42,546 bases of DNA, taken from NCBI GenBank assembly GCA_043809245.1, contig JAZDDZ010000044.1, positions 1 through 42,546 on the forward strand. Direction: 5' to 3'. The position numbers were made by a program, and so were the translations under genes. This stretch comes from Candidatus Iainarchaeum sp. GTDB lineage: Archaea; Iainarchaeota; Iainarchaeia; Iainarchaeales; JAZDDZ01. This document shows, piece by piece, positions 1,222 through 32,365 of this stretch; position 1 is the stretch's first letter; every line of letters starts with the position of its first letter. The notes beneath the pieces were generated by a model. The model was not told the origin of the DNA. It worked only from the letters and a program-made list of their open reading frames with translations, and searched no databases.

Positions 1222-4104
1222 ATGGCTGAAACGCAGGCTGTCATAGCCGAAGAAAAACGGGTTTTGGATTACGTTGAGAAAAAAAACGCATTAGCGGAAG
1301 CAAAAGCCGTGAAGCTTTTAATGAACGCAAAGGAATTCGAAAAAATTGTGGACGAGCTTTTAGGCGAGGGCGTTTTCATTTTAACCGAGGAAAAGGTAAG
1401 GGAAAAAATTCTGAAAAAGGAAACAAAGCTCGGCGCAATAGAGGAAGAGGTTTTGGTTAAAAGGAAAAGCTTCAGGGCATTGGCAGAGGAAAGCGCGCCG
1501 CAGCTGAGGATTTTAAGCGAACTGGATGTAACAAACCAGATGGGCTCAAGGGGAACGGTTAAAAATTTTCTGCAGTTATTCCAGGACAAGTTTGAATTTT
1601 TAAGCTCGGTTTTAAGGCAGAGGATTAACTTTAACCCGAAGCCGATTTCAAGGCTTAATCGCGTGATGAAGAACAGCGAAGTCGACATCATTGGCATGAT
1701 CAGGGATAAAAGGATGAGCAAGAAGGGAAACCCGATTGTTTTTTTGGAGGACTTGGAGGCGGAATGCATTGCTGTTTTCTCCAAAAACGACCAAAGGGTT
1801 TTTGACCTTGCGAAAACAGTGGTGCTTGACGATGTCATAGGCGTGAAGGGAAAAAAAATAAGCGACGAAATGATTGTGGTCAATGACATTTTTTTCCCTG
1901 ATTTGCCGATGAAGCCGATCAAAAAAGTCGAAAGCACGCTGAACCTGGCGGTTATTTCGGACATGCATGTGGGAAGCAAGCTTTTCCTTGAAAAAGAATT
2001 CGGAAAATTCATTTCATGGTTAAACGGGAATGTAGGCTCGGAAAAAGAAATTGAAAGAATTGGCAGGATAAAATACCTGGTTGTGGCAGGGGACAATGTT
2101 GATGGAGTCGGAATTTATCCCGACCAATTTGACGAATTGGCGGTTAAGGACATTTTTGAACAGTACAATATTTTTTCGGAACTGATAAAACAGGTTCCAG
2201 AATACATTAAGGTGATAATCTGCACTCCCAAAGGAACCCTTTTAAAAACAGCCGAAGGTTATAAGCCGGTTGAAGAACTTAAGGAGGGCGACCAGGTCTT
2301 TTCATTTGATGAAAAGCAGGGGCGCGTTGTAACCAACAAGATACGCAACAAAATTAGCAGGTTTGCAAAAAAATTAATTAAACTAACTTTTACTGGTGGA
2401 GTAGAGCTTATTTGCACCCCTGAACATCCACTACTTGTATATGAGAACAAGATGCTAGTATGGAAAAACGCAAGCGAATTAACCGCGGGCAGTTTATTGC
2501 CGGTTCCACGAGCGCATAATGAACAAATGCAGATTAACACACTTGATTTACTGAACAAAATCAACGGAGAAATCTATATCAAAAAGCCTGAAACAATCCT
2601 ACTTTCATGCTATCAAAAAAAATCATTAAACCACATACCGGAAAGAACTAGAAGCAGTTATTTTTCTGGAGAGGCCCCAATGCCCTGGTCTTTGCTTGCA
2701 AAAACGAACAGCAATGAAGAAAAGTCATTTGACTGGCCCATCAAGGTAAAAACGCATCACGGCAATTATGTAAAATTGCCAAAAATCATCCCGCCTGAAT
2801 TTTTATATGCGCTTGGAATATTACTTACAGATGGAAGTTTTTCAAAAATAAAAAACAAATTCCCGGACGGTCGATGCGGGTTTTCCTACAGAGTCAGGAT
2901 ATTTAACTCAAACCAAGAAATAATTAATGCGGTTAAATCCTGCCTGAAAGAATTTGACATTGATCCTACGGAAGAATACATTGAATTTCCAAAAACCAGA
3001 AGCATTGCTGGCAGAGCAGTATCCTTTAGAAAACCTATCTTTAATTTGTCGTACACAAACCGCTTCCTTGGAGAACTGCTAATTGCTTTGGGTATAAATC
3101 CCGGGCCTAAGAAAAAAAGTAGTTTAGGGGCCTTGGCGACTCTTCCCTGGGAACATATAAAATACGTTCTAGGCGGCTTATTCGATGGTGATGGCACAAG
3201 ATCAAAAAAAATGACAACCCTTACTACCTCAAGCAAAAGATTTGCAACAGAAGTATTTTTACTTCTGCAAGAACATGGATTTGCGCCTAATTTAAGGTTA
3301 TCAAATAAAATTAATACAGTCTGCATTCATAGAAACCCCGATATTAAGCGCTTCTTTGGAGAAGTACCGCTAAAGCGTATTTCGAGAGATGTTCCGTCTA
3401 TGAATGACAACATCAGCAAAGGAAGGCTAAATAATGCGTATCCCGTTGATCTCCCCCTGAAAGATTTTGTTTTATGGCGCAAACTGGTGAAAAGTGAAGA
3501 AATAGCAGGTGAAACGGTATATAACCTAGAGGTGGAAAATGCGCACACGTATATTGCAATGGGTTTCATCAACCATAATTGCCCTGGGCAGCATGATGCG
3601 GTTCGAAGGGCCGACCCCCAGCCTGCAGTTCCCAAGGAATTTGTTAAAGATTTGTATTCCCTGAAAAACGTGCATTTTGTGGGAAGCCCTTCATGGGTGG
3701 AAATAGAGGGGCTCAAAACCCTTATTTACCACGGCGCATCTTTGCACGATCTTTATGCTTCGCTTAACTCTTTGAGTTCAAGGGAACCGCACAAGGCAAT
3801 AATTGAAATCCTGAAAAGGAGGAGCCTGATGCCGACTTATGGCTTGAGGCAGCCTTATGTTCCTGAAAAAAAGGATTTTCTGCTGATAAGGGAAGAGCCT
3901 GACCTGTACATTGGCGGAGACATGCATCACACTGGCTTTGCGCAGTACAAGGCATGCACTGTAATAAATTCAAGCACATGGCAGAAGCAGACAAACTTTC
4001 AATTGGAGCAGGGGCACGTTCCCACCCCTGGAATTGCGCTGGAATTGGACCTTCAAACCAGAAGCATGAGGGAAAATTATTTCATTGAACAGGAAAAAGA
4101 GTGA
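1222..4104 (+). CDS. DNA polymerase II (PolD) small subunit DP1, intein-containing (extein 333+175 aa, intein 453 aa)
   Basis: N-terminal DP1 domain. Calcineurin-like phosphoesterase motifs ISDMHVGS and VVAGDNVDG, then ..YIKVII|intein|CPGQHDAVRRADPQP.. and the C-terminal DP1 region (GGDMHHTGF..). Confidence 0.85.
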   Translation: MAETQAVIAEEKRVLDYVEKKNALAEAKAVKLLMNAKEFEKIVDELLGEGVFILTEEKVREKILKKETKLGAIEEEVLVKRKSFRALAEESAPQLRILSELDVTNQMGSRGTVKNFLQLFQDKFEFLSSVLRQRINFNPKPISRLNRVMKNSEVDIIGMIRDKRMSKKGNPIVFLEDLEAECIAVFSKNDQRVFDLAKTVVLDDVIGVKGKKISDEMIVVNDIFFPDLPMKPIKKVESTLNLAVISDMHVGSKLFLEKEFGKFISWLNGNVGSEKEIERIGRIKYLVVAGDNVDGVGIYPDQFDELAVKDIFEQYNIFSELIKQVPEYIKVIICTPKGTLLKTAEGYKPVEELKEGDQVFSFDEKQGRVVTNKIRNKISRFAKKLIKLTFTGGVELICTPEHPLLVYENKMLVWKNASELTAGSLLPVPRAHNEQMQINTLDLLNKINGEIYIKKPETILLSCYQKKSLNHIPERTRSSYFSGEAPMPWSLLAKTNSNEEKSFDWPIKVKTHHGNYVKLPKIIPPEFLYALGILLTDGSFSKIKNKFPDGRCGFSYRVRIFNSNQEIINAVKSCLKEFDIDPTEEYIEFPKTRSIAGRAVSFRKPIFNLSYTNRFLGELLIALGINPGPKKKSSLGALATLPWEHIKYVLGGLFDGDGTRSKKMTTLTTSSKRFATEVFLLLQEHGFAPNLRLSNKINTVCIHRNPDIKRFFGEVPLKRISRDVPSMNDNISKGRLNNAYPVDLPLKDFVLWRKLVKSEEIAGETVYNLEVENAHTYIAMGFINHNCPGQHDAVRRADPQPAVPKEFVKDLYSLKNVHFVGSPSWVEIEGLKTLIYHGASLHDLYASLNSLSSREPHKAIIEILKRRSLMPTYGLRQPYVPEKKDFLLIREEPDLYIGGDMHHTGFAQYKACTVINSSTWQKQTNFQLEQGHVPTPGIALELDLQTRSMRENYFIEQEKE
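2221..3579 (+). mobile_element. Intein with LAGLIDADG homing-endonuclease domain inside DP1 (Cys1 ... His-Asn, +1 Cys)
   Basis: Starts CTPKGTLLK (Cys1) and ends ..GFINHN followed by Cys. Two LAGLIDADG motifs (LYALGILLTDGSF and YVLGGLFDGDGT). It interrupts the phosphoesterase GNHD-type motif. 1359 nt, in frame. Confidence 0.8.
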
Positions 4105-4113
4105 AAAAAATGC
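4096..4113. repeat. Target-site duplication, left copy (aaagagtgaaaaaaatgc), includes the DP1 TGA stop
   Basis: Matches 4201-4219 except for one extra A in the homopolymer. Confidence 0.75.
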
Positions 4114-4200
4114 AGAAAAAGATTAATACCCGCTATATAGAGGAGAGGGGTCAGGATTAACCTAAAACTGGGGGTGCCCTGCAGGGTACCCGCGGTTTGG
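4114..4200. mobile_element. Miniature GC-rich insertion element, copy A (87 bp), between DP1 and DP2
   Basis: Flanked by an 18/19-bp direct duplication. Shares the blocks aaagatt / ggggtcagga / cctNaaactggggg / ggtNccc..gcggtttgg with 22588-22684. Confidence 0.55.
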
Positions 4201-4219
4201 AAAGAGTGAAAAAAAATGC
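4201..4219. repeat. Target-site duplication, right copy (aaagagtgaaaaaaaatgc), includes the DP2 ATG
   Basis: Direct repeat of 4096-4113. Confidence 0.75.
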
Positions 4220-7749: not shown

Positions 7750-10557
7750 ATGAATGCAAAAATAGTTTTGGTTTTAATTGTTGCGGTTGCATTAATCCAG
7801 GCTGCTTCAGCGGCAGTCATTTTCCAGGACAACTTTAATGGTTCGCCTTACTGGGATTCTCAGATGGGAACACGCGCACCGAACTGGGATTACTCGCCTG
7901 ATTGGAGTGCTTATGGTTTGCCTGATGCGCAGATTTTTGGTAGTTCTTGCGGGAGAATGAATTCGGGTTGTTTTCAGGTGAATTACGAGGACAGGGGCGA
8001 GCCATCAGGGCATTTGAATAAGGATTTCCCCGGCAATTCCGAGCTTTATTTTAGGTGGTATGTAAAGTTTGACAATAGGTGGATTTGGCAGAACCTTACT
8101 TTTTACAAAATGGCAAGATTTTACTGGAATTACCAGAATGACCCAGGCACCAATTATGTTACCATTCCCGACTGGGCCTGGATGCCCCCAAGGCTGTACA
8201 CTGGCGCGGGTGCTGGTGCAGGAACAATTTTGAGTGACCCCGCCAATCCTGTTTATTTTTCGGAGTTTGGCGCGGGAAAATGGTATGAGATAGAATTCCG
8301 CTTAAAAAACAATGATTTAGGGCAAAACAACGGAATACTGCAGGTTTGGTTCAATGGAAAGCTGCGCCAAACCTACAACAATATCAGTTATGTTGGCCAG
8401 CAACAATTATTGATTGACCACTTCAATATAGGCGACAACACCAATAATCAGGCATTGGTTGGAATTGCGCCAAACGAATGGTGGGTTAGGCACGATGATG
8501 TAAAGGTCAGCACAACATACATTGGCCCAGAGCCATGCCCAAACGAAACTGAAATCACCCCTGAAAACGTTGGCGCCTGTTATTGTGGAACCACTACACC
8601 CAACCCCGCTTGCTCGCCAACAAACACAACAGCATGCACTGGAGTAGTTGACTCGGGTTACTGCAACAACGGAGTATGGAGCCCAAGCGGAACAAGTGAC
8701 ACCACTCCGCCAACAGTTTCAATTAGTTCGCCGACAACAGGTTCAACTGTTTCTGGCACAATAACTGTTACAGCCAACGCCTCGGACAATGTGGCTGTTG
8801 CGGGAGTGCAATTCAAATTAGACGGAAGCAATTTGGAAAGCGAGGACTTATCAGCGCCTTACTCGGTTTCATGGAATACTACAACAGCTTCAAATTCTTT
8901 GCATGCTTTGACTGCTGTTGCAAGGGATGCAAGTGGAAACACTGCAACTTCCACAACAGTTAATGTAACAGTGAATAATGCGGCAAGCACCGGTTGGGTT
9001 TTTTGCGCAAACGAAGGCGAAACCTGCAGTTTCACAGGAACACGACAGGTCAGATACGGAGCAAACCAAACATACGCGTACGGAACATACACTAACTCGG
9101 TTTCATGCAGCAACTCAGTATTCGGAGACCCAATCTACGGAGCAGCAAAACAATGCGACTACAACAGTTCAACTACAAGCTGCACTGAAAACTGGTCATG
9201 CACTGCATGGAGCACATGCTCTGGAGGAACACAAACAAGAACCTGCACTGATTCAGCCGCATGCGGAACCACTGTAAACAAGCCAGTGGAAACGCAAAGC
9301 TGTTCCACTCCAGGCGCGGGAGTGATTTTCGAGGATGATTTTGAGGGATGGAATGATGCGGTGCCAAATGACAGTTCTTTAATCTGGAGTCCAGCAAACG
9401 GAAGCATTTCCTCAGCATCAAACGGAAAATGGTGCTCCTCACAACAATGGAACGAATACGGCCTGCCAGACACACAGGTAATTCCATCAAAAGGAAGATA
9501 CAACAGCCAATGCGTTGAAGGCAACATTGAATCAAGAGTCCAACCCGCAGCAGGAGTTGTAAGCCTACTGCCCGACAAAACACACGACGAACTATACTTC
9601 AGGTGGTACACAAAATACGACCCCACATGGAGTTGGTGGCCAAACCAAAACGGGCAAAAACTCGCAAGAATGAGTGTAGGCCCCGCAGACATTGGCTGCA
9701 CCACTTTAAATGACCACATAATTCCCACCTTTGCATGGGGAAGAATGGCCTATGAAATATTTCCAAGCGTTATAACCCCTGTTTATTCTGACCCTGAGGT
9801 CACATGGTATGACCGCGGCGCGGGAAAATGGATTTTAATTGAAGTGTATTCCAAATTGAATACTGTCGGGCAAAGCGACGGAGTTTTAACCTCGTGGATT
9901 AATGGAAAAAAAGTATTGCACAAGGAAGGAGTGGTTATAAGAAACAGCAATTACAACTTCACTAATCTCACAATCGGCGATAATATAATCTACACAAACC
10001 AGGCAGGAAGCTCCGGCGTTCCCTGGTTGCCTCCTGAGGAAAAACAAATATGGTGGGATGACGTTAAAGTTTCAACCAGTTTCATTGGCCCGGAACCCTG
10101 CAAAAACGGAGTTGAAATCACGCCAGAAAACGTTGGAACATGCTACTGCGGAACAGGCACGCCAAACCCAGATTGCGCTACTAACACTAATCCTCCTTCC
10201 ACAAACCCAGCAGCAGGAGAATACATTACCCCAAACCCATCAGCATGCACTGGCATAGTTGATTCAGGCTACTGCTGCAATGGCTCCTGGCAAACAACAA
10301 GCTGCACACCCGCAGTGCAGTGCACGGTTAACGTTGCAAACCCATGCACAATCTCTCTCGCAGGGGGAACAATCAATTCCTGCACACAGCAAAACCTAAT
10401 CTACCAATACAACGCAACAACAACGGTAAATCACACAGTAAACGGATTGCAGGCAAGCAAGGCATACGACATCAAAATAGAAAACACCACGCAGGGGACA
10501 ACGCAAAACAAAACCGCAAGCACCAATGCCTCGGGCATGCTGCAGTTCGGTTCCTGA
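7750..10557 (+). CDS. Secreted Cys-rich multi-module surface protein (signal peptide; two jelly-roll-like modules, Ig-like domain, Cys-rich small modules)
   Basis: N-terminal signal peptide MNAKIVLVLIVAVALIQAASA. Internal duplication: two modules each containing YFRWY.K[FY]D..W and WWDDVKVST..IGPEPC..EITPENVG.CYCG. Ig-like stretch TPPTVSISSP..VTANASDN. Paralog at 29588-32365. Confidence 0.7.
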   Translation: MNAKIVLVLIVAVALIQAASAAVIFQDNFNGSPYWDSQMGTRAPNWDYSPDWSAYGLPDAQIFGSSCGRMNSGCFQVNYEDRGEPSGHLNKDFPGNSELYFRWYVKFDNRWIWQNLTFYKMARFYWNYQNDPGTNYVTIPDWAWMPPRLYTGAGAGAGTILSDPANPVYFSEFGAGKWYEIEFRLKNNDLGQNNGILQVWFNGKLRQTYNNISYVGQQQLLIDHFNIGDNTNNQALVGIAPNEWWVRHDDVKVSTTYIGPEPCPNETEITPENVGACYCGTTTPNPACSPTNTTACTGVVDSGYCNNGVWSPSGTSDTTPPTVSISSPTTGSTVSGTITVTANASDNVAVAGVQFKLDGSNLESEDLSAPYSVSWNTTTASNSLHALTAVARDASGNTATSTTVNVTVNNAASTGWVFCANEGETCSFTGTRQVRYGANQTYAYGTYTNSVSCSNSVFGDPIYGAAKQCDYNSSTTSCTENWSCTAWSTCSGGTQTRTCTDSAACGTTVNKPVETQSCSTPGAGVIFEDDFEGWNDAVPNDSSLIWSPANGSISSASNGKWCSSQQWNEYGLPDTQVIPSKGRYNSQCVEGNIESRVQPAAGVVSLLPDKTHDELYFRWYTKYDPTWSWWPNQNGQKLARMSVGPADIGCTTLNDHIIPTFAWGRMAYEIFPSVITPVYSDPEVTWYDRGAGKWILIEVYSKLNTVGQSDGVLTSWINGKKVLHKEGVVIRNSNYNFTNLTIGDNIIYTNQAGSSGVPWLPPEEKQIWWDDVKVSTSFIGPEPCKNGVEITPENVGTCYCGTGTPNPDCATNTNPPSTNPAAGEYITPNPSACTGIVDSGYCCNGSWQTTSCTPAVQCTVNVANPCTISLAGGTINSCTQQNLIYQYNATTTVNHTVNGLQASKAYDIKIENTTQGTTQNKTASTNASGMLQFGS

Positions 10558-21923: not shown

Positions 21924-22667
21924 GTGTTTTTTTTGGAGAAAGGAAGCATAATAAGGCTCAGTTTGACTGGAAGAGACCTTGTCACTGGCAGGGTTTTCGA
22001 GACAACCGATGAAAAAACAGCAAAAGACGCGGGAATTTACCGCGAGAACGCTTCATTCCAGCCTATAACCGCGGTTGTGGGAAAAGGAGAACTGATTGTA
22101 GGGGTTGATGAAGCGCTTGAACAGATGAGTGAAGGCGAGGAAAAGACTGTAAGAATTCCAGCGGAAAAGGCTTTCGGTGAAAGAAAAAAGGAAATGATTG
22201 TTGTCGCGCCATTGGAGCAGTTCAGGAAAAGAAAAATACAGCCTTTTCCGGGATTGGTTGTTGAGATAAACGGCAATTATGGAAGGGTGCAGAGCGTGAG
22301 CGGCGGAAGGGTCAGGGTTGACTTCAACAGCGAGCTCGCTGGAAAAGAGGTTGAATTCAGGTTAAAGGTTGAAAATGAGATAAAGGGAACCGCGGAGAAA
22401 GCTGAAGCTCTTGCGGAAAAATTCTTCCCGTTAAAGGAAAAAAAGGCGGAAGTGAAACTCAATGGAAAAGAGCTTGAAGTGCTTCTCCCCAAAGGGCTGC
22501 CGAAAGAATTTGACGTAATAAAAAAGGTTTTCGAAAAATTCGTGCTTGAAAACGTGAAGGAAATAGAGAAAATCGGCTTCATTGAAGGAAAAGGAAACAC
22601 AAAGATTGATGAAAAATCCATAAAGGAGGGGGGTCAGGAAGACCCTGAAACTGGGGGGGAACAGTAG
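21924..22667 (+). CDS. FKBP-type peptidyl-prolyl cis-trans isomerase (long archaeal type); C-terminus rewritten by insertion of the miniature element
   Basis: FKBP core ..LTGRDLVTGRVFETT..VVGKGELIVGVDEALEQMSEGEEKTVRIPAEKAFGER... GTG/TTG start. The present stop at 22665-22667 lies inside the inserted element. Confidence 0.8.
   Translation: MFFLEKGSIIRLSLTGRDLVTGRVFETTDEKTAKDAGIYRENASFQPITAVVGKGELIVGVDEALEQMSEGEEKTVRIPAEKAFGERKKEMIVVAPLEQFRKRKIQPFPGLVVEINGNYGRVQSVSGGRVRVDFNSELAGKEVEFRLKVENEIKGTAEKAEALAEKFFPLKEKKAEVKLNGKELEVLLPKGLPKEFDVIKKVFEKFVLENVKEIEKIGFIEGKGNTKIDEKSIKEGGQEDPETGGEQ
22553..22587. repeat. Target-site duplication, left copy (35 bp, cgtgaaggaaatagagaaaatcggcttcattgaag)
   Basis: Exact 35/35 match to 22685-22719. 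Confidence 0.85.
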
Positions 22668-22684
22668 GTGCCCCCGCGGTTTGG
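22588..22684. mobile_element. Miniature GC-rich insertion element, copy B (97 bp), inside the 3' end of the FKBP gene
   Basis: Flanked by a perfect 35-bp direct duplication. Shares conserved blocks and the terminal ccgcggtttgg with 4114-4200. Carries the in-frame stop that now ends the FKBP ORF. Confidence 0.55.
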
Positions 22685-22719
22685 CGTGAAGGAAATAGAG
22701 AAAATCGGCTTCATTGAAG
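22685..22719. repeat. Target-site duplication, right copy (35 bp)
   Basis: Exact repeat of 22553-22587. Confidence 0.85.
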
Positions 22720-22778
22720 TGAAAGAAGAAGAGAAAGGGAAAGAGAAGGCGGAAAGCAAGGCGAAGAACACGCCTTAA
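22686..22778 (+). pseudogene. Displaced ancestral 3' end of the FKBP gene (VKEIEKIGFIEVKEEEKGKEKAESKAKNTP*)
   Basis: In frame with the FKBP ORF (offset 762 nt) and open to TAA at 22776-22778. It becomes contiguous with the gene if the 132-bp insertion is removed. Confidence 0.5.
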
Positions 22779-23607: not shown

Positions 23608-23645
23608 TTGATTAACATAAAGGGCAATTTTTGCGAGGTATTACA

Positions 23646-26600
23646 ATGGATTTACTTAAAGAAATAAAGGAAATAGTCAGCACGTCGCTGCCTGAAGAGG
23701 CGCGCGTTACATCAGTGGACCTTGAAGGGCCGGAGGTTGCGGTTTACACCAAGAACCCAAAGGCTTTCTTTGAGAACGAAAACTTTGTGGCAAAGCTTGC
23801 ATTTGACTTGAAGAAAAGGGTTAACATCAGAACAGACAAAAGCCTGCTTATCCCAGAGGAAGAGGCAAAGAAAAAAATAGAGGAAATTCTGCCAGCTGAC
23901 GCCGGAGTAAAGGACATCCAATTCAATCCCGCTTTCTCGGAAGTCGTAATCGAGGCAATAAAGCCAGGCCTGGTTATAGGCAAGGGCGGGGAAACAAGCA
24001 AAAAAATCATACTTGAGACTGGATGGACGCCGAATATTTTAAGGGCCCCCACGACCCCCTCTGAAATACTGAAGGGAATAAGGCATCACTTGCACAAGTA
24101 CAGCGCGGAGAGGAAAAAAATACTGCAGGAAACCGCGAAAAAAATTTACGAGGAAAGGGACGGCAAAAGCAACGGCTGGATTAGGATGACTGCATTGGGC
24201 GGATACCGCGAAGTTGGAAGAAGCTGCATGCTCGTGGAAACAAGGGACACAAAAATCATAATGGATTGTGGAATAAACGTTGCAAACAGCGATGAGCCAT
24301 ATCCCTATCTTGACGCAATAAGGTTTCCAATAAACGAATTGGATGCAATAATCATCAGCCACGCGCACTTGGACCACTCTGGTTTCACCCCGTACCTTTT
24401 CAAGCTTGGCTATCGTGGGCCAGTATATTGCACTGCCCCAACCCGAGACCTGATGGCTTTGCTGCAGTTCGACTACATTGATGTTTTGCTTAAAGAGGGA
24501 AAAGAGCCGCCTTACAGTGAAAGGGATGTAAAGGAAATGGTAAAGTACTGCATTACAAGGGAATACCGGGAAGTCACGGATATTGCGCCGGACATGAGGT
24601 TAACGTTCCATAACGCTGCGCACATTCTTGGAAGCGCTTCAGTTCACTTGCACATGGGTGAGGGGGCGCACAACCTTGTTTATTCTCTGGACCACAAAGT
24701 GCCTGTAACAATTATAGATAAACACAACAATGTGCATACTGAAGAAATCGGGAAATTGGTTGACAGGGAGATTAAAAAATTTGGAGTTAGTGACGGCTAT
24801 GTTGATGAAGCGGCTAACCTTTCCGGCTGGAAAACCATAGCCTTCAACCCGTTAACGTTAAAGGCGGAAAAAGTCGAGATAACTTCTTTTGTTAGGCATC
24901 CAATCAACGAGGACTTGTTTGAGATTAAAACCAAAAGCGGCAGGAAAACCATTGTTACAGGTTCGCACAGCGTTTTTACTGTTAAAGACGGAATAGTTAC
25001 AGATATTATGGCAAAGGATTTAACACTTGGCGATTACATTGTTGGCTTAAGAAGGCTTAACATAAAAGCCGAAAAACCGATAATTTCGTTGCCTCAAAAT
25101 AAGTTTGCGGTAAAATTAAATGGCGAAAAATTGGAAACCCGCTTGAATGAGACCTATGAAAAGATAAAGAAACGTTTTCCAGATATGGAAAATAAGCTAA
25201 TGTGCTGGGCAAGAGAGCATCTGGAAAACGGCTTGTATGAAAATGCAATTGCCAAAAAGTACAATGCAAGCAGGAAAACTGTAAGAAAATACTTTAAAGA
25301 ATTAGGAATACAAAAAAATCTCCGCAGAGGCACGCTTTTTGCTTCCCAAATCGAAATAAAAAAGGATTTTGCGCGTTTTTTGGGATACTTTGTGTCTGAA
25401 GGTAGCACGAATAAAAACACAGTAATAATTACGCAGTACGATAAGAAAATGCTTGAGGATTCTATCCGGATTATTGAATGTAATTTTGGAATTAAGGGCA
25501 AGATAGTTAGAAATGAAGCACAGTTTTATTCCAAACAGCTGGCATTACTGCTTAAGGAAGTGCTGGCTTGCGGGAATAATGCGCATGCCAAAAGAGCGCC
25601 AAGGCAAATAATGCTTGCTGAAGAAGATGTTATCGCAGAATTTTTGAAGGGGTGCTTTTTAGGCGATGGGTGTTTCATAAAAAAGCCTAAAGGCATGTAT
25701 GTGAACTGTACCTCTAAGAGCAAATTTTTGATTCAGGAAATTGGATTTTTGCTATTGCGAATTGGAATAGCGGCAACATTCACCTATAACAAATCAATTA
25801 GAATGCATAACCTCAACATTTATGGGCAAGAACAGTTAGACCGATTTTTCAAGTTTATTAGTATTGAAAAATGGGAAAATAAATACCGGGCGCATAAGTA
25901 CGCGTATAAAAAAAGTTGTTTTGCAGACAGAATTCCAATATCGGCATTAAGCCAGCAGACACAAGAGACGTTTAATTTAAGTTCGTACAGAGCAGCTAAA
26001 TCATGCAGTACAGCAATGCTTCTACGTTCAAGCCAAAATACTTTGGAGAAAAAACTTGTTGAATCGGACTTACTGTTTGATGAAATAAACAGCATTAGAA
26101 AGGTACGTTCCAGCAGCAAATATGTGTATGATTTTAGTGTAACAGGCTATGAGAATTTTTTAGGCGGTTCAGGGCACCTATTCATGCATAACACCGGTGA
26201 CTTCAAGTACGGTTTCACAAGGCTGTTCAACAACATTGACATGCAGTACCCGAGGCTTGAAACGCTTATAATTGAAAGCACTTACGGTTCAAGGGACGAC
26301 ATAATGCCGCAAAGGCAGGAAGCAGAGGAAATCCTTTTGGAAGTGATAAGGGAGGCAACCGAAAGGGGAGGCAATGTCCTTATACCTGTGTTTGCGGTTG
26401 GAAGGGCACAGGAAATAATGCTTGTAATAGAGAACTTTTACCGCAGGGGATTGATTGACGCAAAAGTCTTTGTTGACGGAATGACAAGGGAGGCAAGCGC
26501 AATTCACACCGCTTACCCTGAGTACCTAAGGGAAATAGTGCAGAGAAGGGTGCTGACAAATGATTCTCCTTTCACTTCAGATGCATTCCAGGTCATAGAC

Positions 26601-27044
26601 CCCCAAAACCGCGACGCAGTATTGAATGAAAAGAAGGCAATAATCATCAGTTCCTCGGGAATGCTTACAGGCGGCCCGGCAGTTTATTACTTTAACAAGA
26701 TGGCAGAAGACCCCTTGAATACGCTTATTTTTGTGGGCTATCAGGGAGAAGGCTCGCAGGGAAGAAAAATTCAGTCAGGGCTGCGTTCAATGCCAGTGAA
26801 TGTCAACGGAAAGACAAGGGAGTTACACATAAAGATGCAGGTGGAGACAGTTGAAGGTTTCAGTGGGCATTCAGATTTTATGCAGCTTGCAAATTATGTA
26901 AGGAACCTAAAGCCCAAGCCAAAGAAAGTCATAGTAGACCACGGCGACCAGTCAAAGACAGTTGAATTCGCGAAATTCCTTGCAAACAAGTTCAAATTGA
27001 ACTGCACTGCGCCAAGAGACCTGGATTCGCTAAGGCTGAAATAA
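23646..27044 (+). CDS. aCPSF1-type beta-CASP/metallo-beta-lactamase RNase with N-terminal KH domains, intein-containing (extein ~630 aa, intein 503 aa)
   Basis: KH motif VIGKGGE. MBL motifs HAHLDHSG and AAHILGSA, then ..HNLVY|intein|TGDFKYG.. and the beta-CASP C-terminus (..GFSGHSD..VDHGD). Confidence 0.85.
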   Translation: MDLLKEIKEIVSTSLPEEARVTSVDLEGPEVAVYTKNPKAFFENENFVAKLAFDLKKRVNIRTDKSLLIPEEEAKKKIEEILPADAGVKDIQFNPAFSEVVIEAIKPGLVIGKGGETSKKIILETGWTPNILRAPTTPSEILKGIRHHLHKYSAERKKILQETAKKIYEERDGKSNGWIRMTALGGYREVGRSCMLVETRDTKIIMDCGINVANSDEPYPYLDAIRFPINELDAIIISHAHLDHSGFTPYLFKLGYRGPVYCTAPTRDLMALLQFDYIDVLLKEGKEPPYSERDVKEMVKYCITREYREVTDIAPDMRLTFHNAAHILGSASVHLHMGEGAHNLVYSLDHKVPVTIIDKHNNVHTEEIGKLVDREIKKFGVSDGYVDEAANLSGWKTIAFNPLTLKAEKVEITSFVRHPINEDLFEIKTKSGRKTIVTGSHSVFTVKDGIVTDIMAKDLTLGDYIVGLRRLNIKAEKPIISLPQNKFAVKLNGEKLETRLNETYEKIKKRFPDMENKLMCWAREHLENGLYENAIAKKYNASRKTVRKYFKELGIQKNLRRGTLFASQIEIKKDFARFLGYFVSEGSTNKNTVIITQYDKKMLEDSIRIIECNFGIKGKIVRNEAQFYSKQLALLLKEVLACGNNAHAKRAPRQIMLAEEDVIAEFLKGCFLGDGCFIKKPKGMYVNCTSKSKFLIQEIGFLLLRIGIAATFTYNKSIRMHNLNIYGQEQLDRFFKFISIEKWENKYRAHKYAYKKSCFADRIPISALSQQTQETFNLSSYRAAKSCSTAMLLRSSQNTLEKKLVESDLLFDEINSIRKVRSSSKYVYDFSVTGYENFLGGSGHLFMHNTGDFKYGFTRLFNNIDMQYPRLETLIIESTYGSRDDIMPQRQEAEEILLEVIREATERGGNVLIPVFAVGRAQEIMLVIENFYRRGLIDAKVFVDGMTREASAIHTAYPEYLREIVQRRVLTNDSPFTSDAFQVIDPQNRDAVLNEKKAIIISSSGMLTGGPAVYYFNKMAEDPLNTLIFVGYQGEGSQGRKIQSGLRSMPVNVNGKTRELHIKMQVETVEGFSGHSDFMQLANYVRNLKPKPKKVIVDHGDQSKTVEFAKFLANKFKLNCTAPRDLDSLRLK
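24684..26192 (+). mobile_element. Intein with LAGLIDADG homing-endonuclease domain inside aCPSF1 (Ser1 ... His-Asn, +1 Thr)
   Basis: Starts SLDHKVPVTIID and ends ..GHLFMHN followed by TGDFK. LAGLIDADG motifs FLGYFVSEGST and FLKGCFLGDGC. 1509 nt, in frame. Inserted immediately before the MBL motif-4 Asp. Confidence 0.8.
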
Positions 27045-29587: not shown

Positions 29588-32365
29588 TCAACTGCTGAAC
29601 TGCAGCACTCCTGTGGAATTTGTGCTAACGGTCTTATTCTGCGCGGTTCCTGTTGTCTGGTTTTTTATTTCAATGTCGTATGCCTTGCTTGCCTCCAACC
29701 CGTTAACTGTGTTGTTCACTGTTGTCGTTGCGCTGTACTGGTAAATCAGATTCTGCTGCAAGCATGTGTTGATTGTTCCCCCTGCAATTGAAATAGTGCA
29801 GGGTGTTGAAATGTTGACTGTGCACTGCAGCGCGGGAGTGCAGGAATTTGTTTGCCAGGAGCCATTGCAGCAGTAACCCGAGTCAACTATTCCTGTGCAT
29901 GCTGATGGATTTGGTGCAGAGCATTCTGGCGAAGCTGAACTGTTTCCGCAGTAGCATGTGCCGACGTTTTCTGGTGTGATTTCCACTCCGTTTTGGCATG
30001 GTTCAGGACCAATGTATGTGGTGCTTACAATGAAATCGTCCCACCATATTTGTTTTTCTTCTGGTGGTGACCATGGAACGTCCAAAGAGCCTCCGCCGCC
30101 GTCGTAGATTATGTTGTCGCTCAGCGTGACATTGTTGAAATGCCCTTCCGCAGACCTGAGGCTTATGCCGCTAACATCAAAGATTTTTTTTCCATTAATC
30201 CATGAAGCCGCTCTCCCGTCATTCAGCCCTACTGTGTTGAGTTTTAAGTAATCCTCTATTAGTATCCACACACCTCCATTGTAATCATACCATGTTGCGC
30301 CTTTTTCGTTGTCAGGGTAAATTGATTGATCATTGTAGGGAATTGTCCTGTAAACCATTCGCCCCCAACTCCATCCCGGAATATTGTAAGCTCGCCCTCC
30401 GGATGGCAAATCCGCGCAAGCCTGTGAATCTGTGAGAGATTTAATGCGCATTAATTTGTGTATGTTTTGGTTTGGCCACCAAGCCCAATCCACGGCGTAT
30501 TTTACATAATAACGGAAATAGAGTTCGTCGTGGTCCTTTTCAGGAAGCCATGCAGTCATTCCTCCAGATGGTTCCTGCCCTCCTTCTATATTTACCTGCA
30601 TGCACCCGCTGTCAAGCCTGCCGCTATGGTTGATTATTTGTTCAGTAGGGAGTCCATAATTACTCCAAGGCCTGAACTGGCACCATTCGCTTCCTTCAGG
30701 CCTGCATGATGTAATGCTGTCACCTAACTCGCATAAAACATCAGGTTTGGGATTAATATTCTTCCAATTCTCAAAATGGTCCTCGAAAATCACTCCCGCC
30801 CCTGGCAAAGAGCAGCTTTGCGTTTCCACTGGCTTGTTGTTTGTTGTTCCGCATGCGGCTAAATCAGTGCAGGTTCTTGTTTGTGTTCCTCCAGAGCATG
30901 CACTCCATGCCGTGCAGCTCCATGTTTCTGTGCAGCTTGTCGTTGAACTGTTGTAGTCGCAGTGTTTTGTTGCTCCGTAGATTGGGTCTCCGAAAACTGA
31001 GTTGCTGCATGAAACCGAGTTAGTGTAAGTGCCATAGGCGTATGTGTTGTTTGCTCCGTATCTGACCTGCCTTGTTCCGGAAAAACTGCATGTTTGCCCT
31101 TCGTTTGCACAAAAAGTCCAGCCACTGGTTGCAGTATTGTTCACTGTCACGTTAACTGTTGTGCTTGTTGCAGTGTTTCCGCTTGCATCCCTTGCAGTTG
31201 CAGTCAATGCATGTGAAGCATTTGAAGCCGTAGTCGTATTCCATGAAAAAGAGTAAGGCGCGCTTGTGTCCTCGCTTCCCAGATTGCTTCCGTCTAATTT
31301 GAATTGCACTCCAGCCACTCCAACATTATCCGAAGCGTTCGCTGTAACGCTAATTGTGCCTGAAACTGTTTGCTCTGAAGTGGGAGAGGTAATGGAAACT
31401 GTGGGTAGAGTAGTATCACTTGTCCCGCTTGGGCTCCAAACACCATTATTGCAGTAACCCGAGTCAACTATTCCCGTGCATGCTGTTGTGTTTGTTGCAT
31501 TGCAGTCTGGGTTCGGCGCAGTGGTTCCGCAGTAGCAGGTTCCGACATTTTCAGGGGTGATTTCAATACCGTTCGGGCAGGGCTCCGGGCCTAAATATGT
31601 GGTGCTGACTTTTACGTCGTCGTGCCTGACCCACCATTCGTTTGGCGATATTCCAACCAATGCCTGGTTGTTGGTGTTGTCGCCTATATTGAAATGGTCA
31701 ATTAATAATTGTTGCTGGCCAACATAACTGATATTGTTGTATGTTTGGCGTAGCTTTCCATTGAACCAAACCTGCAGTATTCCGTTGTTCTGCCCTATCG
31801 TATTATTTTTAAAGCGAAATTCAATTTCATACCATTTTCCCGCGCCGAATTCTGAAAAGTAAACAGGATTGGCGGGGTCACTCAAAATTGTTCCTGCGCC
31901 TGCACCCGCGCCAGTGTATAGCCGGGGGGGCATCCATGCCCAGTCAGGGATAGTTACATAACTAGTTCCAGGGTCATTCTGGAAATTCCAGTAAAATCTT
32001 GCCATTTTGTAAAAAGTAAGGTTTTGCCAAACCCACCTATTGTCAAACTTCACATACCACCTAAAGTAAAGCTCGGAATTGCCGGGCAAATTCTTATTCA
32101 AATGCCCTGACGGTTCCCCCCGATCCTCGTAATTCACCTGAAAACAACCCGAATTCATTCTACCGCAGGAACTCCCAAAAATCTGCGCATCAGGCAAACC
32201 ATAAGCGCTCCAATCAGGAGACGTTCCCCAATTCGGAGCTGCTGTACCCATCTGAGAATCCCAGTAAGGCGAACCATCAAAATCATCCTGGAAAATAATT
32301 GCGGCCGAAGCTGTCTGCATTAACGCTATTGCAAGAATTAAAGCCAAAACGATTTTTCCATTCAT
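29588..32365 (-). CDS. Paralog of the 7750-10557 secreted Cys-rich multi-module surface protein (inverted orientation)
   Basis: The first ~520 aa are ~90% identical to the 7750-10557 product (exact nucleotide runs up to 29 bp). The second jelly-roll module is divergent. The C-terminal Cys-rich tail and the ..LQFSS* ending are conserved. Confidence 0.7.
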   Translation of the reverse strand: MNGKIVLALILAIALMQTASAAIIFQDDFDGSPYWDSQMGTAAPNWGTSPDWSAYGLPDAQIFGSSCGRMNSGCFQVNYEDRGEPSGHLNKNLPGNSELYFRWYVKFDNRWVWQNLTFYKMARFYWNFQNDPGTSYVTIPDWAWMPPRLYTGAGAGAGTILSDPANPVYFSEFGAGKWYEIEFRFKNNTIGQNNGILQVWFNGKLRQTYNNISYVGQQQLLIDHFNIGDNTNNQALVGISPNEWWVRHDDVKVSTTYLGPEPCPNGIEITPENVGTCYCGTTAPNPDCNATNTTACTGIVDSGYCNNGVWSPSGTSDTTLPTVSITSPTSEQTVSGTISVTANASDNVGVAGVQFKLDGSNLGSEDTSAPYSFSWNTTTASNASHALTATARDASGNTATSTTVNVTVNNTATSGWTFCANEGQTCSFSGTRQVRYGANNTYAYGTYTNSVSCSNSVFGDPIYGATKHCDYNSSTTSCTETWSCTAWSACSGGTQTRTCTDLAACGTTNNKPVETQSCSLPGAGVIFEDHFENWKNINPKPDVLCELGDSITSCRPEGSEWCQFRPWSNYGLPTEQIINHSGRLDSGCMQVNIEGGQEPSGGMTAWLPEKDHDELYFRYYVKYAVDWAWWPNQNIHKLMRIKSLTDSQACADLPSGGRAYNIPGWSWGRMVYRTIPYNDQSIYPDNEKGATWYDYNGGVWILIEDYLKLNTVGLNDGRAASWINGKKIFDVSGISLRSAEGHFNNVTLSDNIIYDGGGGSLDVPWSPPEEKQIWWDDFIVSTTYIGPEPCQNGVEITPENVGTCYCGNSSASPECSAPNPSACTGIVDSGYCCNGSWQTNSCTPALQCTVNISTPCTISIAGGTINTCLQQNLIYQYSATTTVNNTVNGLEASKAYDIEIKNQTTGTAQNKTVSTNSTGVLQFSS

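What the first reader, a model, noticed from the sequence alone, without database searches (positions are those of the whole stretch)
22553..22778. Copy B of the same element inside the FKBP gene with a perfect 35-bp target duplication; ancestral C-terminus still readable downstream
Directly seen: cgtgaaggaaatagagaaaatcggcttcattgaag occurs at 22553-22587 and again, 35/35 identical, at 22685-22719. The 97 bp between them (22588-22684) is the element homolog of 4114-4200. The total insertion is 132 bp, a multiple of 3. It introduces the TAG that now terminates the FKBP ORF (new tail GKGNTKIDEKSIKEGGQEDPETGGEQ*). The second repeat copy continues in the original frame to a TAA at 22776-22778 (VKEIEKIGFIEVKEEEKGKEKAESKAKNTP*), which is the pre-insertion C-terminus. 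An intact duplicated target and an uninterrupted old ORF indicate a recent event.
Basis: seen in the sequence. Interest (0 to 1): 0.85.

Follow-up and report, generated by a model that had tools for sequence, protein, structure and literature searches.

The report
Small DPANN mobile element in FKBP
A 97-bp copy of an apparently undescribed small mobile element, common in DPANN archaea, has inserted near the end of an FKBP chaperone gene, duplicating 35 bp and giving the protein a new tail; the family fits no known prokaryotic transposon class.

Summary
A 35/35-identical direct repeat (22553-22587, 22685-22719) brackets a 97-bp insert homologous to 4114-4200. The insert supplies the TAG that now ends FKBP. 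The old C-terminal tail survives in frame downstream. Twenty-six FKBP orthologues lack the duplication and end with tails like the displaced one.

The insert belongs to a large family: more than 230 copies in DPANN MAGs and metagenomes, absent from Rfam. Its conserved part is a 55-60-nt 3' module:
- a short purine segment;
- TCAGGAnnnnCCnnAAACUG;
- a hairpin with many compensatory changes;
- a sharp end at CGGUUYGG.

About a quarter of copies (27/108 and 20/85 in two independent sets) carry a flank duplication of 13-103 bp starting 0-4 nt after that end. The 5' part varies (5-180 nt). There are no terminal inverted repeats, no target motif and no adjacent transposase or reverse-transcriptase gene. 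Many copies abut tRNA exon boundaries. The purine segment covaries as a mirror image of the hairpin's purine strand, which suggests a triple helix.

My best mechanistic guess is trans-mobilised copying anchored at the element's 3' end at widely staggered target breaks, probably through RNA. That step is inferred, not shown.

The parts
21933..22667 (+). FKBP26-type peptidyl-prolyl isomerase gene as it now stands. The longest ORF starts at GTG 21924; the deposited 244-aa protein implies a start at 21933. It ends at the element-borne TAG.
   Evidence: ORF list. Pfam FKBP_C and FKBP26_IF. P0001 is 100% identical and 244 aa.
22553..22587 (+). Left copy of the 35-bp target duplication. It is contiguous with the FKBP body and encodes ..VKEIEKIGFIE.
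   Evidence: (D19)
22588..22624 (+). Lineage-specific 5' part of the element. It is colinear with 4114-4141 of copy A (AAAGATTRAT...ATANAGGAG) and is not conserved in other lineages.
22625..22633 (+). Purine segment S5 (GGAGGGGGG). It is the mirror image of 22654-22660, the nucleotides that follow CUG.
22634..22653 (+). Invariant-type linker TCAGGAAGACCCTGAAACTG. Its last six bases form the 5' strand of the outer stem.
22648..22682 (+). Hairpin 2: AAACUG / G / GGGGG.. loop ..CCCCC / G / CGGUUU.
   Evidence: Fold at -31.5 kcal/mol, z = -2.8. Family covariation.
22683..22684 (+). Terminal GG, the precise 3' end of the element. The duplication starts at the next base.
22665..22667 (+). TAG stop codon supplied by the element. 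It lies in the loop of hairpin 2.
22685..22719 (+). Right copy of the 35-bp target duplication.
22720..22778 (+). Displaced ancestral C-terminal tail (VKEEEKGKEKAESKAKNTP) and its TAA. It is still an open frame and in frame with FKBP.
4096..4113 (+). Copy A, left copy of an 18-19-bp duplication (AAAGAGTGAAAAAAATGC). It holds the PolD DP1 stop codon TGA (4102-4104) and a duplicate of the DP2 ATG.
4114..4200 (+). Copy A of the element: 87 nt, conserved core about 4142-4200, hairpin 2 at 4165-4198.
4201..4219 (+). Copy A, right copy of the duplication. It has A8 where the left copy has A7, and it contains the functional DP2 start (ATG 4216-4218).

Best explanation
SHOWN. Positions 22588-22684 are a genuine insertion of a small, non-coding, non-autonomous element. 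It was accompanied by duplication of 35 bp of the FKBP gene. The left repeat copy keeps the folded part of FKBP intact. The element then adds 26 new codons and a TAG. The right repeat copy and the old tail are left as an untranslated relic.

The element belongs to a family spread across DPANN archaea (Micr-, Iain-, Alti-, Aenigmat- and Nano/Woese-archaeota). The family's only conserved part is a structured 3' module of 55-60 nt:
- a purine segment (S5);
- TCAGGAnnnnCCnnAAACUG;
- a G opposite a G;
- a variable stem-loop;
- GCGGUUYGG.

INFERRED MECHANISM, about 40-45% likely. The element is copied in, not cut and pasted, by machinery supplied in trans. Synthesis is anchored at the element's exact 3' end, which is joined at a first break in the target. 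It runs towards a 5' end that is not sequence-defined. The second target strand is broken 13-103 nt away, and fill-in produces the long, variable duplication. This is the logic of target-primed reverse transcription of a SINE-like RNA.

In this reading the folded 3' module is the recognition and stabilising element. It is a hairpin with a conserved internal U.G wobble, capped by a purine-motif triple helix formed by S5. Its RNA 3' end may be defined at donor loci by tRNA-processing enzymes. That idea rests on copies that end exactly at tRNA intron 3' splice sites or 1-3 nt upstream of tRNA 5' ends.

Long duplications make insertions harmless in compact genomes whenever a gene boundary lies inside the duplicated stretch. 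Copy A shows this: the DP1 stop and the DP2 start are both preserved.
For: Insertion itself:
- Exact 35-bp repeat and homology to copy A.
- Orthologues lack the insert.

Family:
- More than 116 exact core-pattern matches in GTDB genomes, all archaeal and nearly all DPANN.
- 120 more stretches in metagenomes.
- 0 to 1 in IMG/VR viral contigs.
- No Rfam family and no tRNA call.

3'-anchored insertion:
- 27/108 copies have a flank duplication of 15-103 bp starting 0-3 nt after ...GGTTYGG, against 0/108 in controls.
- Replicated in metagenomes: 20/85 against 2/85.
- The 5' part is 5-179 nt long, unique to each copy, and has no TIR. The shortest elements start exactly at S5.
- There is no target motif.

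Single-stranded, RNA-like structure:
- The inner stem has 6 pairs with compensatory changes: 111 double-change cells against 28.7 +/- 4 in shuffles.
- U32.G61 is kept as a wobble even in diverged copies where the neighbouring pairs covary.
- The sense strand folds better than the antisense strand.
- S5 mirror covariation: 685 identical cells against 462.5 +/- 13 in permutations. A/A and G/G covary, with U opposite A as the exception. The signal is register-specific. It came from a search pattern that did not fix these positions.

tRNA-processing link:
- The element's 3' end equals the predicted intron 3' end in L011, L049, L056 and L114.
- It lies 1-3 nt upstream of the tRNA 5' end in L032, L090 and L105.
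- 29/113 copies lie within 150 nt of a tRNA.
Against: - No reverse transcriptase, nuclease or any other recurrent mobile-element ORF lies near about 230 copies. I could not scan whole genomes for one.
- DPANN genomes are tiny, and non-LTR-type retroposition is unknown in prokaryotes.
- There is no A-tail, and almost no 5'-truncation series. Only two copies have hairpin 2 alone, L004 and L035.
- The 5' parts are unique rather than shared, which is unlike SINE families.
- 70-75% of copies show no duplication.
- Elements occur in both orientations relative to neighbouring genes. That fits DNA-level insertion equally well.
- Five copies abut tRNA 3' ends tail-to-tail (L024, L026, L069, L076, L116). 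tRNA processing of a co-transcript cannot explain these.
- The triple helix is inferred from covariation only, and ssDNA could form it as well.
Confidence: 0.45

Rival explanations
1. This is a DNA transposon of a new kind: a non-autonomous element moved as DNA by a trans-acting transposase or nuclease. The enzyme recognises the folded right end (hairpin plus triplex, perhaps as ssDNA) and makes widely and variably staggered target cuts, as IS1634/IS1549-type elements do.
For: - Both orientations occur relative to genes.
- Flank duplications are variable. Long, variable direct repeats are known for IS1634/IS1549 (my own knowledge).
- A mirror-repeat purine tract is the classic requirement for DNA triplexes.
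- No RT was found.
Against: - There are no terminal inverted repeats and no conserved left end.
- No transposase sits next to any copy.
- The conserved internal U.G wobble and the sense-strand folding advantage favour one specific strand.
- Only one end is defined, which is unusual for DDE or HUH elements.
Confidence: 0.25
2. The structure arose by recombination or template switching. One route is Campbell-type integration by short homology of a small circular intermediate (for example an excised, circularised tRNA-intron RNA copied to DNA) that already carried a piece of the target. The other route is a replication copy-choice jump onto the element and back. Either produces X-element-X without staggered cuts.
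For: - Duplication lengths are very broad, up to 103 bp.
- Tandem arrays of element plus flank occur in MAG085 and L087.
- Element ends coincide with tRNA intron ends. Archaeal introns are circularised after splicing (my own knowledge).
- A few junctions fall in register with the T-loop GGTTCGA, which resembles the element end GGTTCGG: L030, L061, L080, L128, L153.
Against: - The intermediate would have to acquire target sequence before integrating.
- Most junctions show no microhomology.
- The 5' parts show no similarity or complementarity to the target.
Confidence: 0.12
3. The module is primarily a functional RNA part of tRNA genes in DPANN, such as an intron or leader element that helps splicing or protects a 3' end. 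Copies in protein-gene regions such as FKBP would then be occasional by-products. In that case copy B might even be removed from the FKBP mRNA by the tRNA splicing endonuclease.
For: - The tRNA association is strong, and element ends coincide exactly with exon boundaries.
- L044 has an antisense plus sense pair bracketing a T-arm interruption of tRNA-Met.
- The sequence is highly conserved across phyla.
- ARMAN/Micrarchaeota have a broad-specificity splicing endonuclease (PMC3239211, PMC3488258).
Against: - At copy B the predicted folds show no bulge-helix-bulge. The two repeat copies pair only through the palindrome CTTCATTGAAG.
- Copies with fresh duplications lie at arbitrary gene ends, in both orientations.
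- A functional role does not explain the duplications.
Confidence: 0.1
4. The structure is an assembly artefact, or a local tandem duplication with random filler, and not a mobile element.
For: I could not inspect reads. The MAG is a short-read assembly, as far as can be told.
Against: - The filler is a member of a family with more than 230 copies.
- The same architecture occurs in dozens of independent assemblies.
- A second copy lies on the same contig.
Confidence: 0.02

Closest known systems
MITEs (miniature inverted-repeat transposable elements) of prokaryotes
   Same: Small, non-coding, multi-copy and non-autonomous. Flanked by a target duplication. Sits mostly between genes.
   Different: MITEs are defined by terminal inverted repeats and a short, fixed TSD of 2-10 bp (PMC11602168). 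This family has no TIR and no defined left end, and its duplications range from 13 to 103 bp.
SINEs and stringent-type LINE 3' tails, mobilised by target-primed reverse transcription (eukaryotes)
   Same: A precise 3' end, a conserved structured 3' module, an undefined or variable 5' end, variable-length target duplications and mobilisation in trans.
   Different: No A-tail or 3' repeat, no internal promoter recognised and no RT partner found. The 5' parts are unique to each copy. No such system is known in archaea or bacteria (PMC8632793 lists none).
IS1634 / IS1549-type insertion sequences (long, variable direct repeats; my own knowledge)
   Same: Target duplications of tens to hundreds of bp that vary between insertions.
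   Different: Those are 1.5-2-kb elements with TIRs and a DDE transposase. Neither feature is present here.
Mobile archaeal tRNA introns (Thermoproteales intron transposition: Fujishima et al. 2010, cited in PMC3218864 and PMC4090602) and tRNA-targeting integrative elements (PMC3293823)
   Same: Related short sequences occur at many tRNA intron positions. tRNA 3' parts are duplicated next to inserted DNA. Both are linked to lineages with broad-specificity splicing endonucleases.
   Different: Those introns have no flank duplications and are not found in protein-gene regions. Integrative elements carry an integrase and a fixed att site. Here the targets are arbitrary and the inserts are only 60-240 bp.
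Triple-helix RNA 3'-end elements (MALAT1/MEN-beta ENE with RNase P-generated 3' end; my own knowledge)
   Same: A purine/pyrimidine triplex is inferred next to an RNA 3' end that, in some copies, lies immediately upstream of a tRNA.
   Different: The ENE uses U.A-U triples with an A-rich 3' tail. Here a 5' purine strand mirrors the stem's purine strand (G.G-C, A.A-U). The triplex is inferred from covariation only.

Membership tests
MITE | Terminal inverted repeats | tested here: not met
   The left junctions of 27 copies with duplications share no sequence. None resembles the reverse complement of ...CCGCGGTTYGG.
MITE | Short target duplication of fixed length | tested here: not met
   13-103 bp, variable.
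MITE | A parent IS with a transposase sharing the ends | tested here: inconclusive
   No recurrent transposase ORF in 1.5 Mb of flanks. Whole genomes could not be searched.
SINE-like retroposon (TPRT) | Variable-length target duplication abutting a precise 3' end | tested here: met
   The offset is 0-3 nt after ...GGTTYGG (up to 4 nt in the metagenome set).
SINE-like retroposon (TPRT) | A reverse-transcriptase partner that shares or recognises the 3' module | tested here: inconclusive
   None was seen next to copies. Genome-wide co-occurrence cannot be tested with the scans available.
SINE-like retroposon (TPRT) | An RNA intermediate (a sense transcript with a discrete 3' end) | not testable with these tools
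   Indirect evidence only: the conserved U.G wobble and the strand-specific fold.
SINE-like retroposon (TPRT) | A-rich or simple-repeat 3' tail | tested here: not met
   The element ends in GG and the duplication follows directly.
Archaeal bulge-helix-bulge intron | A BHB motif formed by the exon-intron junctions | tested here: inconclusive
   For copy B the predicted folds show no BHB. For tRNA-borne copies, the position fits a canonical intron in L011, L049, L056 and L114, but the motif itself was not modelled.
Archaeal bulge-helix-bulge intron | Precise removal restores a functional RNA | not testable with these tools
   This needs RNA-seq.
IS1634/IS1549-type IS | DDE transposase gene and TIRs | tested here: not met
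   The element is 60-240 bp and non-coding, with no TIR.
Integrase-type integrative element | An integrase gene and a fixed att site, usually a tRNA 3' part | tested here: not met
   No ORF. Targets include arbitrary coding and intergenic sites.
Any Rfam 15 family (ribozymes, sRNAs, introns) | Covariance-model match | tested here: not met
   No match at the gathering threshold in the window. Only chance-level hits at E up to 10 on copy B and on two consensus-like copies.
FKBP26-type PPIase (host gene) | FKBP_C and IF (insert-in-flap) domains, plus a C-terminal domain | tested here: met
   PF00254 and PF22199 pass their cut-offs. The C-terminal region aligns with orthologues that hit PF18046.

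The most novel reading that the evidence does not exclude
The family is the first SINE-like retroposon system of archaea. In this reading, a structured RNA of about 60 nt has its 3' end cut out by tRNA-processing enzymes and capped by a purine-motif triple helix. A trans-acting polymerase then copies it into staggered chromosomal breaks. The same process would seed new tRNA introns and split tRNA genes in DPANN lineages.
Probability: 0.3. Interest if true: 0.92.

Novelty: new variant of a known kind. Interest (0 to 1): 0.78.

Why it matters
For this locus, the finding gives a clean, datable example of how a compact archaeal genome tolerates insertions. The long duplication preserves gene ends. 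One protein (FKBP) simply swapped its disordered tail.

For the field, the family is abundant across DPANN phyla yet absent from Rfam, and I found no description in the searchable literature. It also breaks the defining rules of prokaryotic MITEs and IS elements: one defined end, no inverted repeats, and duplications of up to about 100 bp.

Two open questions become directly testable.
1. Its tight link to tRNA exon boundaries bears on how non-canonical tRNA introns and split tRNAs arise.
2. Its covariation pattern predicts a rare purine-motif triple helix, which can be probed directly.

If mobilisation is RNA-mediated, this would extend target-primed retroposition to archaea.

Tried and rejected
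- Known RNA families. Rfam at the gathering threshold on the window, and at E up to 10 on copy B and on two consensus-like copies, gave nothing. ARAGORN found no tRNA or tmRNA in the window.
- C/D-box sRNA. UGAUGA and CUGA are present in copy B only and are not conserved in the family.
- Origin-recognition-box-like DNA (GAAACTGGGG). Rejected because the copies are dispersed, lie in genes and tRNA introns, and carry RNA-type covariation.
- HDV-like, hammerhead or other ribozyme topologies, and group II domain V (shared CGGUUC). There was no model hit and the helices do not map. This is left as a resemblance only.
- Hairpin 1 (GGGUC/GACCC). It is poorly supported: one of its pairs is unpaired in 47/78 copies.
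- Watson-Crick or direct-repeat explanations of the S5 covariation. The register and strand order are wrong: at most 61% identity, against 88% for the mirror reading.
- The 5' part as a guide complementary to the target. No signal.
- The 5' part shared between copies, which would indicate 5' transduction or a longer master element. It is unique in the held data, except within the window's own two copies and within MAG085.
- TIR at the left end. Absent.
- Target-site motif or microhomology. None in general. In-register T-loop junctions occur in only 5/222 copies.
- An adjacent mobilising gene. Clustering of all ORFs in 1.5 Mb of flanks gave only housekeeping families.
- Viral origin. 0 and 1 hits in IMG/VR.
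- Literature. Eight searches and several papers turned up no description of this element.
- Empty-site search for copy B. Not attempted, because the protein database holds no relative above 63% identity.
- Deleting the element in silico and re-running ARAGORN to find interrupted tRNAs. This gave a few plausible T-arm cases (for example L044) but many ambiguous ones.
Full report
1. THE OBSERVATION

The window is the whole 42,546-bp contig of a Candidatus Diapherotrites (Iainarchaeota, DPANN) MAG. The window's FKBP protein is the only member of its cluster, and that cluster's longest contig is 42,546 bp.

The 35-mer CGTGAAGGAAATAGAGAAAATCGGCTTCATTGAAG is at 22553-22587 and again, 35/35 identical, at 22685-22719. 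The 97 bp in between align with 4114-4200 (78% identity over the 49-nt core).

The FKBP ORF ends at TAG 22665-22667, inside the insert. The following ORF, 22668-22778, is in the same frame. It repeats VKEIEKIGFIE and continues VKEEEKGKEKAESKAKNTP*.

2. IS IT AN INSERTION?

The gene is an FKBP26-type PPIase, with FKBP_C and IF domains. The best orthologues are only 58-63% identical, so no empty site from a close relative exists in the databases.

Twenty-six orthologues were aligned with both the present protein and the protein reconstructed by deleting the 132 bp. None has the duplicated block. All end the conserved region with ...I(E/K)KV(R/K)FVEE, followed by a K/E-rich low-complexity tail. 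The displaced tail looks like these tails and the new tail does not.

In orthologue P0002 the FKBP26_C domain ends at residue 221, which aligns with the insertion point. The folded protein is therefore essentially intact and only its disordered tail was exchanged.

'Recent' is supported only in a limited sense. Thirty-five of 35 identical positions and an uninterrupted old frame bound the divergence since insertion to below roughly 8% (my inference). Gene conversion between the repeat copies cannot be excluded.

3. WHAT THE INSERT IS

A 26-nt pattern taken from the part shared by copies A and B (GGGTCAGGANNNNCCNNAAACTGGGG) occurs only twice in the window, with 0 expected by chance.

All are archaeal and nearly all are DPANN MAGs: Micr-, Iain-, Alti-, Aenigmat- and Nano/Woese-archaeota. 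Several genomes hold many copies. It is essentially absent from IMG/VR viral contigs.

Aligning 78 distinct copies shows what is conserved:
- a 5-7-nt purine segment (S5);
- GGGTCAGGAnnAnCCTnAAACTG;
- one G;
- a stem of about 8 bp with a loop of 3 to about 100 nt;
- one G;
- CGGTTYGG.

Nothing upstream of S5 and nothing downstream of GG is conserved.

The inner stem has compensatory changes at six pairs (AGGGGG/CCCCCU, GAAACG/CGUUUC, AGAACC/GGUUCU and others). That amounts to 111 double-change cells against 28.7 +/- 4 in shuffles, and the signal is lost when the partner columns are slid. A covariance model built from this alignment finds only copies A and B in the window. Rfam 15 has no such family.

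4. THE FLANK DUPLICATIONS ARE A FAMILY TRAIT

In 27 of 108 testable copies, the sequence starting 0-3 nt after ...GGTTYGG is repeated upstream of the element. Lengths run from 15 to 103 bp. Control flanks taken 200 nt further on gave 0 of 108.

A second, independent sample came from JGI/ENA metagenome contigs and used a different search pattern. It gave 20 of 85, with duplications from 13 to at least 73 bp, against 2 of 85 in controls.

The features of the junctions are as follows.
- The stretch between the left repeat copy and S5 is 5-179 nt long.
- It is unique to each copy in the held data.
- It is unrelated to the target on either strand.
- It lacks any inverted copy of the right end.
- The shortest elements (L014, L101) begin exactly at S5.
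- No target motif or general microhomology exists.

Duplication-bearing copies sit at gene ends in both orientations. The duplicated stretch usually contains a stop codon, a start codon or a tRNA 3' end. Both neighbours therefore survive. Copy A is the textbook case. Its 18-19-bp duplication spans the PolD DP1 stop codon, a 7-nt spacer and the DP2 start codon. Copy B missed the FKBP stop by 57 nt and so re-tailed the protein.

5. A SECOND STRUCTURAL SIGNAL

S5 covaries with the nucleotides that follow CUG as a mirror image. The k-th base upstream of TCAGGA equals the k-th base downstream of AAACTG. Examples:
- GGGGGAA|TC...CTG|AAGGGGG
- GGGGAGA|TC...CTG|AGAGGGG
- GGAAGGGAA|TC...CTG|AAGGGAA

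The metagenome search pattern did not fix these positions. In that set, identity is 86, 81, 81, 82, 82 and 79 of 87 at k = 1-6. A/A and G/G covary, at 0.41-0.96 bits per position. The total is 685 identical cells against 462.5 +/- 13 in permutations. Other registers reach at most 499, and a direct-repeat reading reaches at most 61%. The first data set gave the same result.

Antiparallel Watson-Crick pairing of S5 with the pyrimidine strand does not fit, because the strand order is wrong. The pattern is exactly that of an antiparallel purine-motif triple helix with G.G-C and A.A-U triples. The 11 exceptions with T opposite A would be U.A-U triples.

The outer stem keeps a U.G wobble even where flanking pairs have changed compensatorily (L086, L044). 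The sense strand also folds markedly better than the antisense strand. I therefore read the module as a single-stranded, most likely RNA, structure. An ssDNA structure is not excluded.

6. LINK TO tRNA GENES

Of 113 copies, 29 lie within 150 nt of, or inside, an ARAGORN-predicted tRNA, out of only 62 tRNAs in 853 kb. The element's 3' end falls at three kinds of tRNA boundary.
- It coincides exactly with the predicted 3' end of a canonical intron in L011, L049, L056 and L114.
- It lies 1-3 nt upstream of the tRNA 5' end in L032, L090 and L105.
- It lies 0-2 nt from the tRNA 3' end, tail to tail, in L024, L026, L069, L076 and L116. The same arrangements recur in the metagenome set.

Many duplications start at the T arm and run past the tRNA 3' end (L043, L045, L062, L077, L101 and others). 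In L044 a tRNA-Met is interrupted in its T arm by a diverged antisense copy, a spacer and a sense copy.

These observations connect the family to the origin of non-canonical tRNA introns. Such introns are known in lineages with broad-specificity splicing endonucleases (PMC3239211, PMC3488258, PMC4090602). I could not show that splicing occurs.

7. MECHANISM

Shown:
- this is an insertion with target duplication;
- the right end is precise and the left end is undefined;
- duplications are long and variable;
- the element does not code;
- no transposase or RT lies beside about 230 copies.

Inferred: a trans-mobilised copy-in process anchored at the element's 3' end, acting at widely staggered breaks. 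Its best-known analogue is target-primed reverse transcription of SINE-like RNAs. I put this at about 0.45.

Rivals and their estimated likelihoods:
- an unknown DNA transposase acting on a folded single end: 0.25;
- recombination or template-switch routes: 0.12;
- a primarily functional tRNA-associated RNA with by-product copies: 0.10;
- an artefact: 0.02.

The main weakness of the favoured model is the missing polymerase partner.

8. COMPARISON AND NOVELTY

The family fails the defining tests for MITEs (inverted repeats, short fixed duplication), for IS1634-type elements (transposase, inverted repeats) and for integrase elements. Among SINE criteria it meets only the structural ones. I found no matching description in eight literature searches, in the papers read or in Rfam.

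I therefore rate it a new variant of a known kind, a small non-autonomous mobile element. There is a real chance, about 0.3, that its mobilisation is categorically new for prokaryotes.

The specific finding, copy B in FKBP, is a correct and well-read example of this family.

Noticed in passing
window 4096-4219: Copy A sits between the PolD DP1 stop (TGA 4102-4104) and the DP2 start (ATG 4216-4218). Its 18-19-bp duplication (A7 versus A8) contains both signals, so both genes stay intact. The left copy's duplicated ATG now opens a 16-codon mini-ORF running into the element.
   Followed up: yes
window 22625-22633 vs 22654-22662; family-wide (A3, L118-L237): The purine segment 5' of TCAGGA is the mirror image of the bases after AAACTG and covaries with them. 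This fits a purine-motif triple helix on hairpin 2.
   Followed up: yes
L011, L049, L056, L114; L032, L090, L105; L024, L026, L069, L076, L116: The element's 3' end coincides with tRNA intron 3' ends, lies 1-3 nt before tRNA 5' ends, or abuts tRNA 3' ends tail to tail. The tail-to-tail class is not explained by any model I considered.
   Followed up: partly
L044 about 400-570: A tRNA-Met(CAT) that already has a canonical intron is also interrupted in its T arm. The interruption consists of a diverged antisense element, a spacer and a sense element, which could pair into a long helix. This suggests a possible route to new introns or split tRNAs.
   Followed up: partly
L110 6250-6690, L092 1620-1830, L096, L087 420-710: Tandem arrays of element-containing units occur: about 135-180 nt per unit in Micrarchaeota MAG085, and three adjacent copies in L087. 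The longer units carry extra hairpins and a CCCCAAAAGAAAAA motif. Many Altiarchaeota copies have an extra upstream hairpin (GGGGTCnnnnGACCCC, with compensatory variants).
   Followed up: partly
L130-L232 (contigs Ga0272448_*): One metagenome holds a very high-copy subfamily with constant flanks (TTGGGGAACAGGTTCCCCCCGA...). Contigs begin and end in element copies, probably because the assembly breaks at them.
   Followed up: no
L023, L036, L043, L046, L059, L062, L107, L116, L148, L153, L197, L202, L221, L224: An ABCE1/RLI gene lies within the fetched flank in 14 of about 236 loci, several times more than expected for a single-copy gene. This may reflect an old, vertically inherited insertion site or a nearby tRNA.
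   Followed up: no
window 1222-4104 and 23631-27044: Both the PolD small subunit (DP1) and the FttA/aCPSF1 beta-CASP ribonuclease carry inteins with LAGLIDADG homing-endonuclease domains.
   Followed up: partly
window 22577-22587 and 22709-22719: The duplicated stretch ends in the palindrome CTTCATTGAAG. In predicted RNA folds the two repeat copies therefore pair with each other and loop out the element. No bulge-helix-bulge is formed.
   Followed up: partly
window 22665-22778: The element's TAG is in frame with the relic ORF. Stop-codon read-through would therefore give FKBP a tail that repeats VKEIEKIGFIE and then the original tail.
   Followed up: no
window 8494-8672 vs 10057-10283, and 29862-30040 vs 31443-31621: There are diverged internal repeats (71-81% identity, about 1.6 kb apart) inside two large ORFs, 7750-10557 (+) and 29588-32365 (-). 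These are presumably repeated protein domains.
   Followed up: no
L030, L061, L080, L128, L153: In a few copies the element end GGTT(C/T)GG is followed directly by AATC.../ATCC..., the 3' part of a tRNA T-loop. The element end thus replaces the similar T-loop sequence GGTTCGA in register. This hints that annealing of the 3' end can guide insertion.
   Followed up: partly
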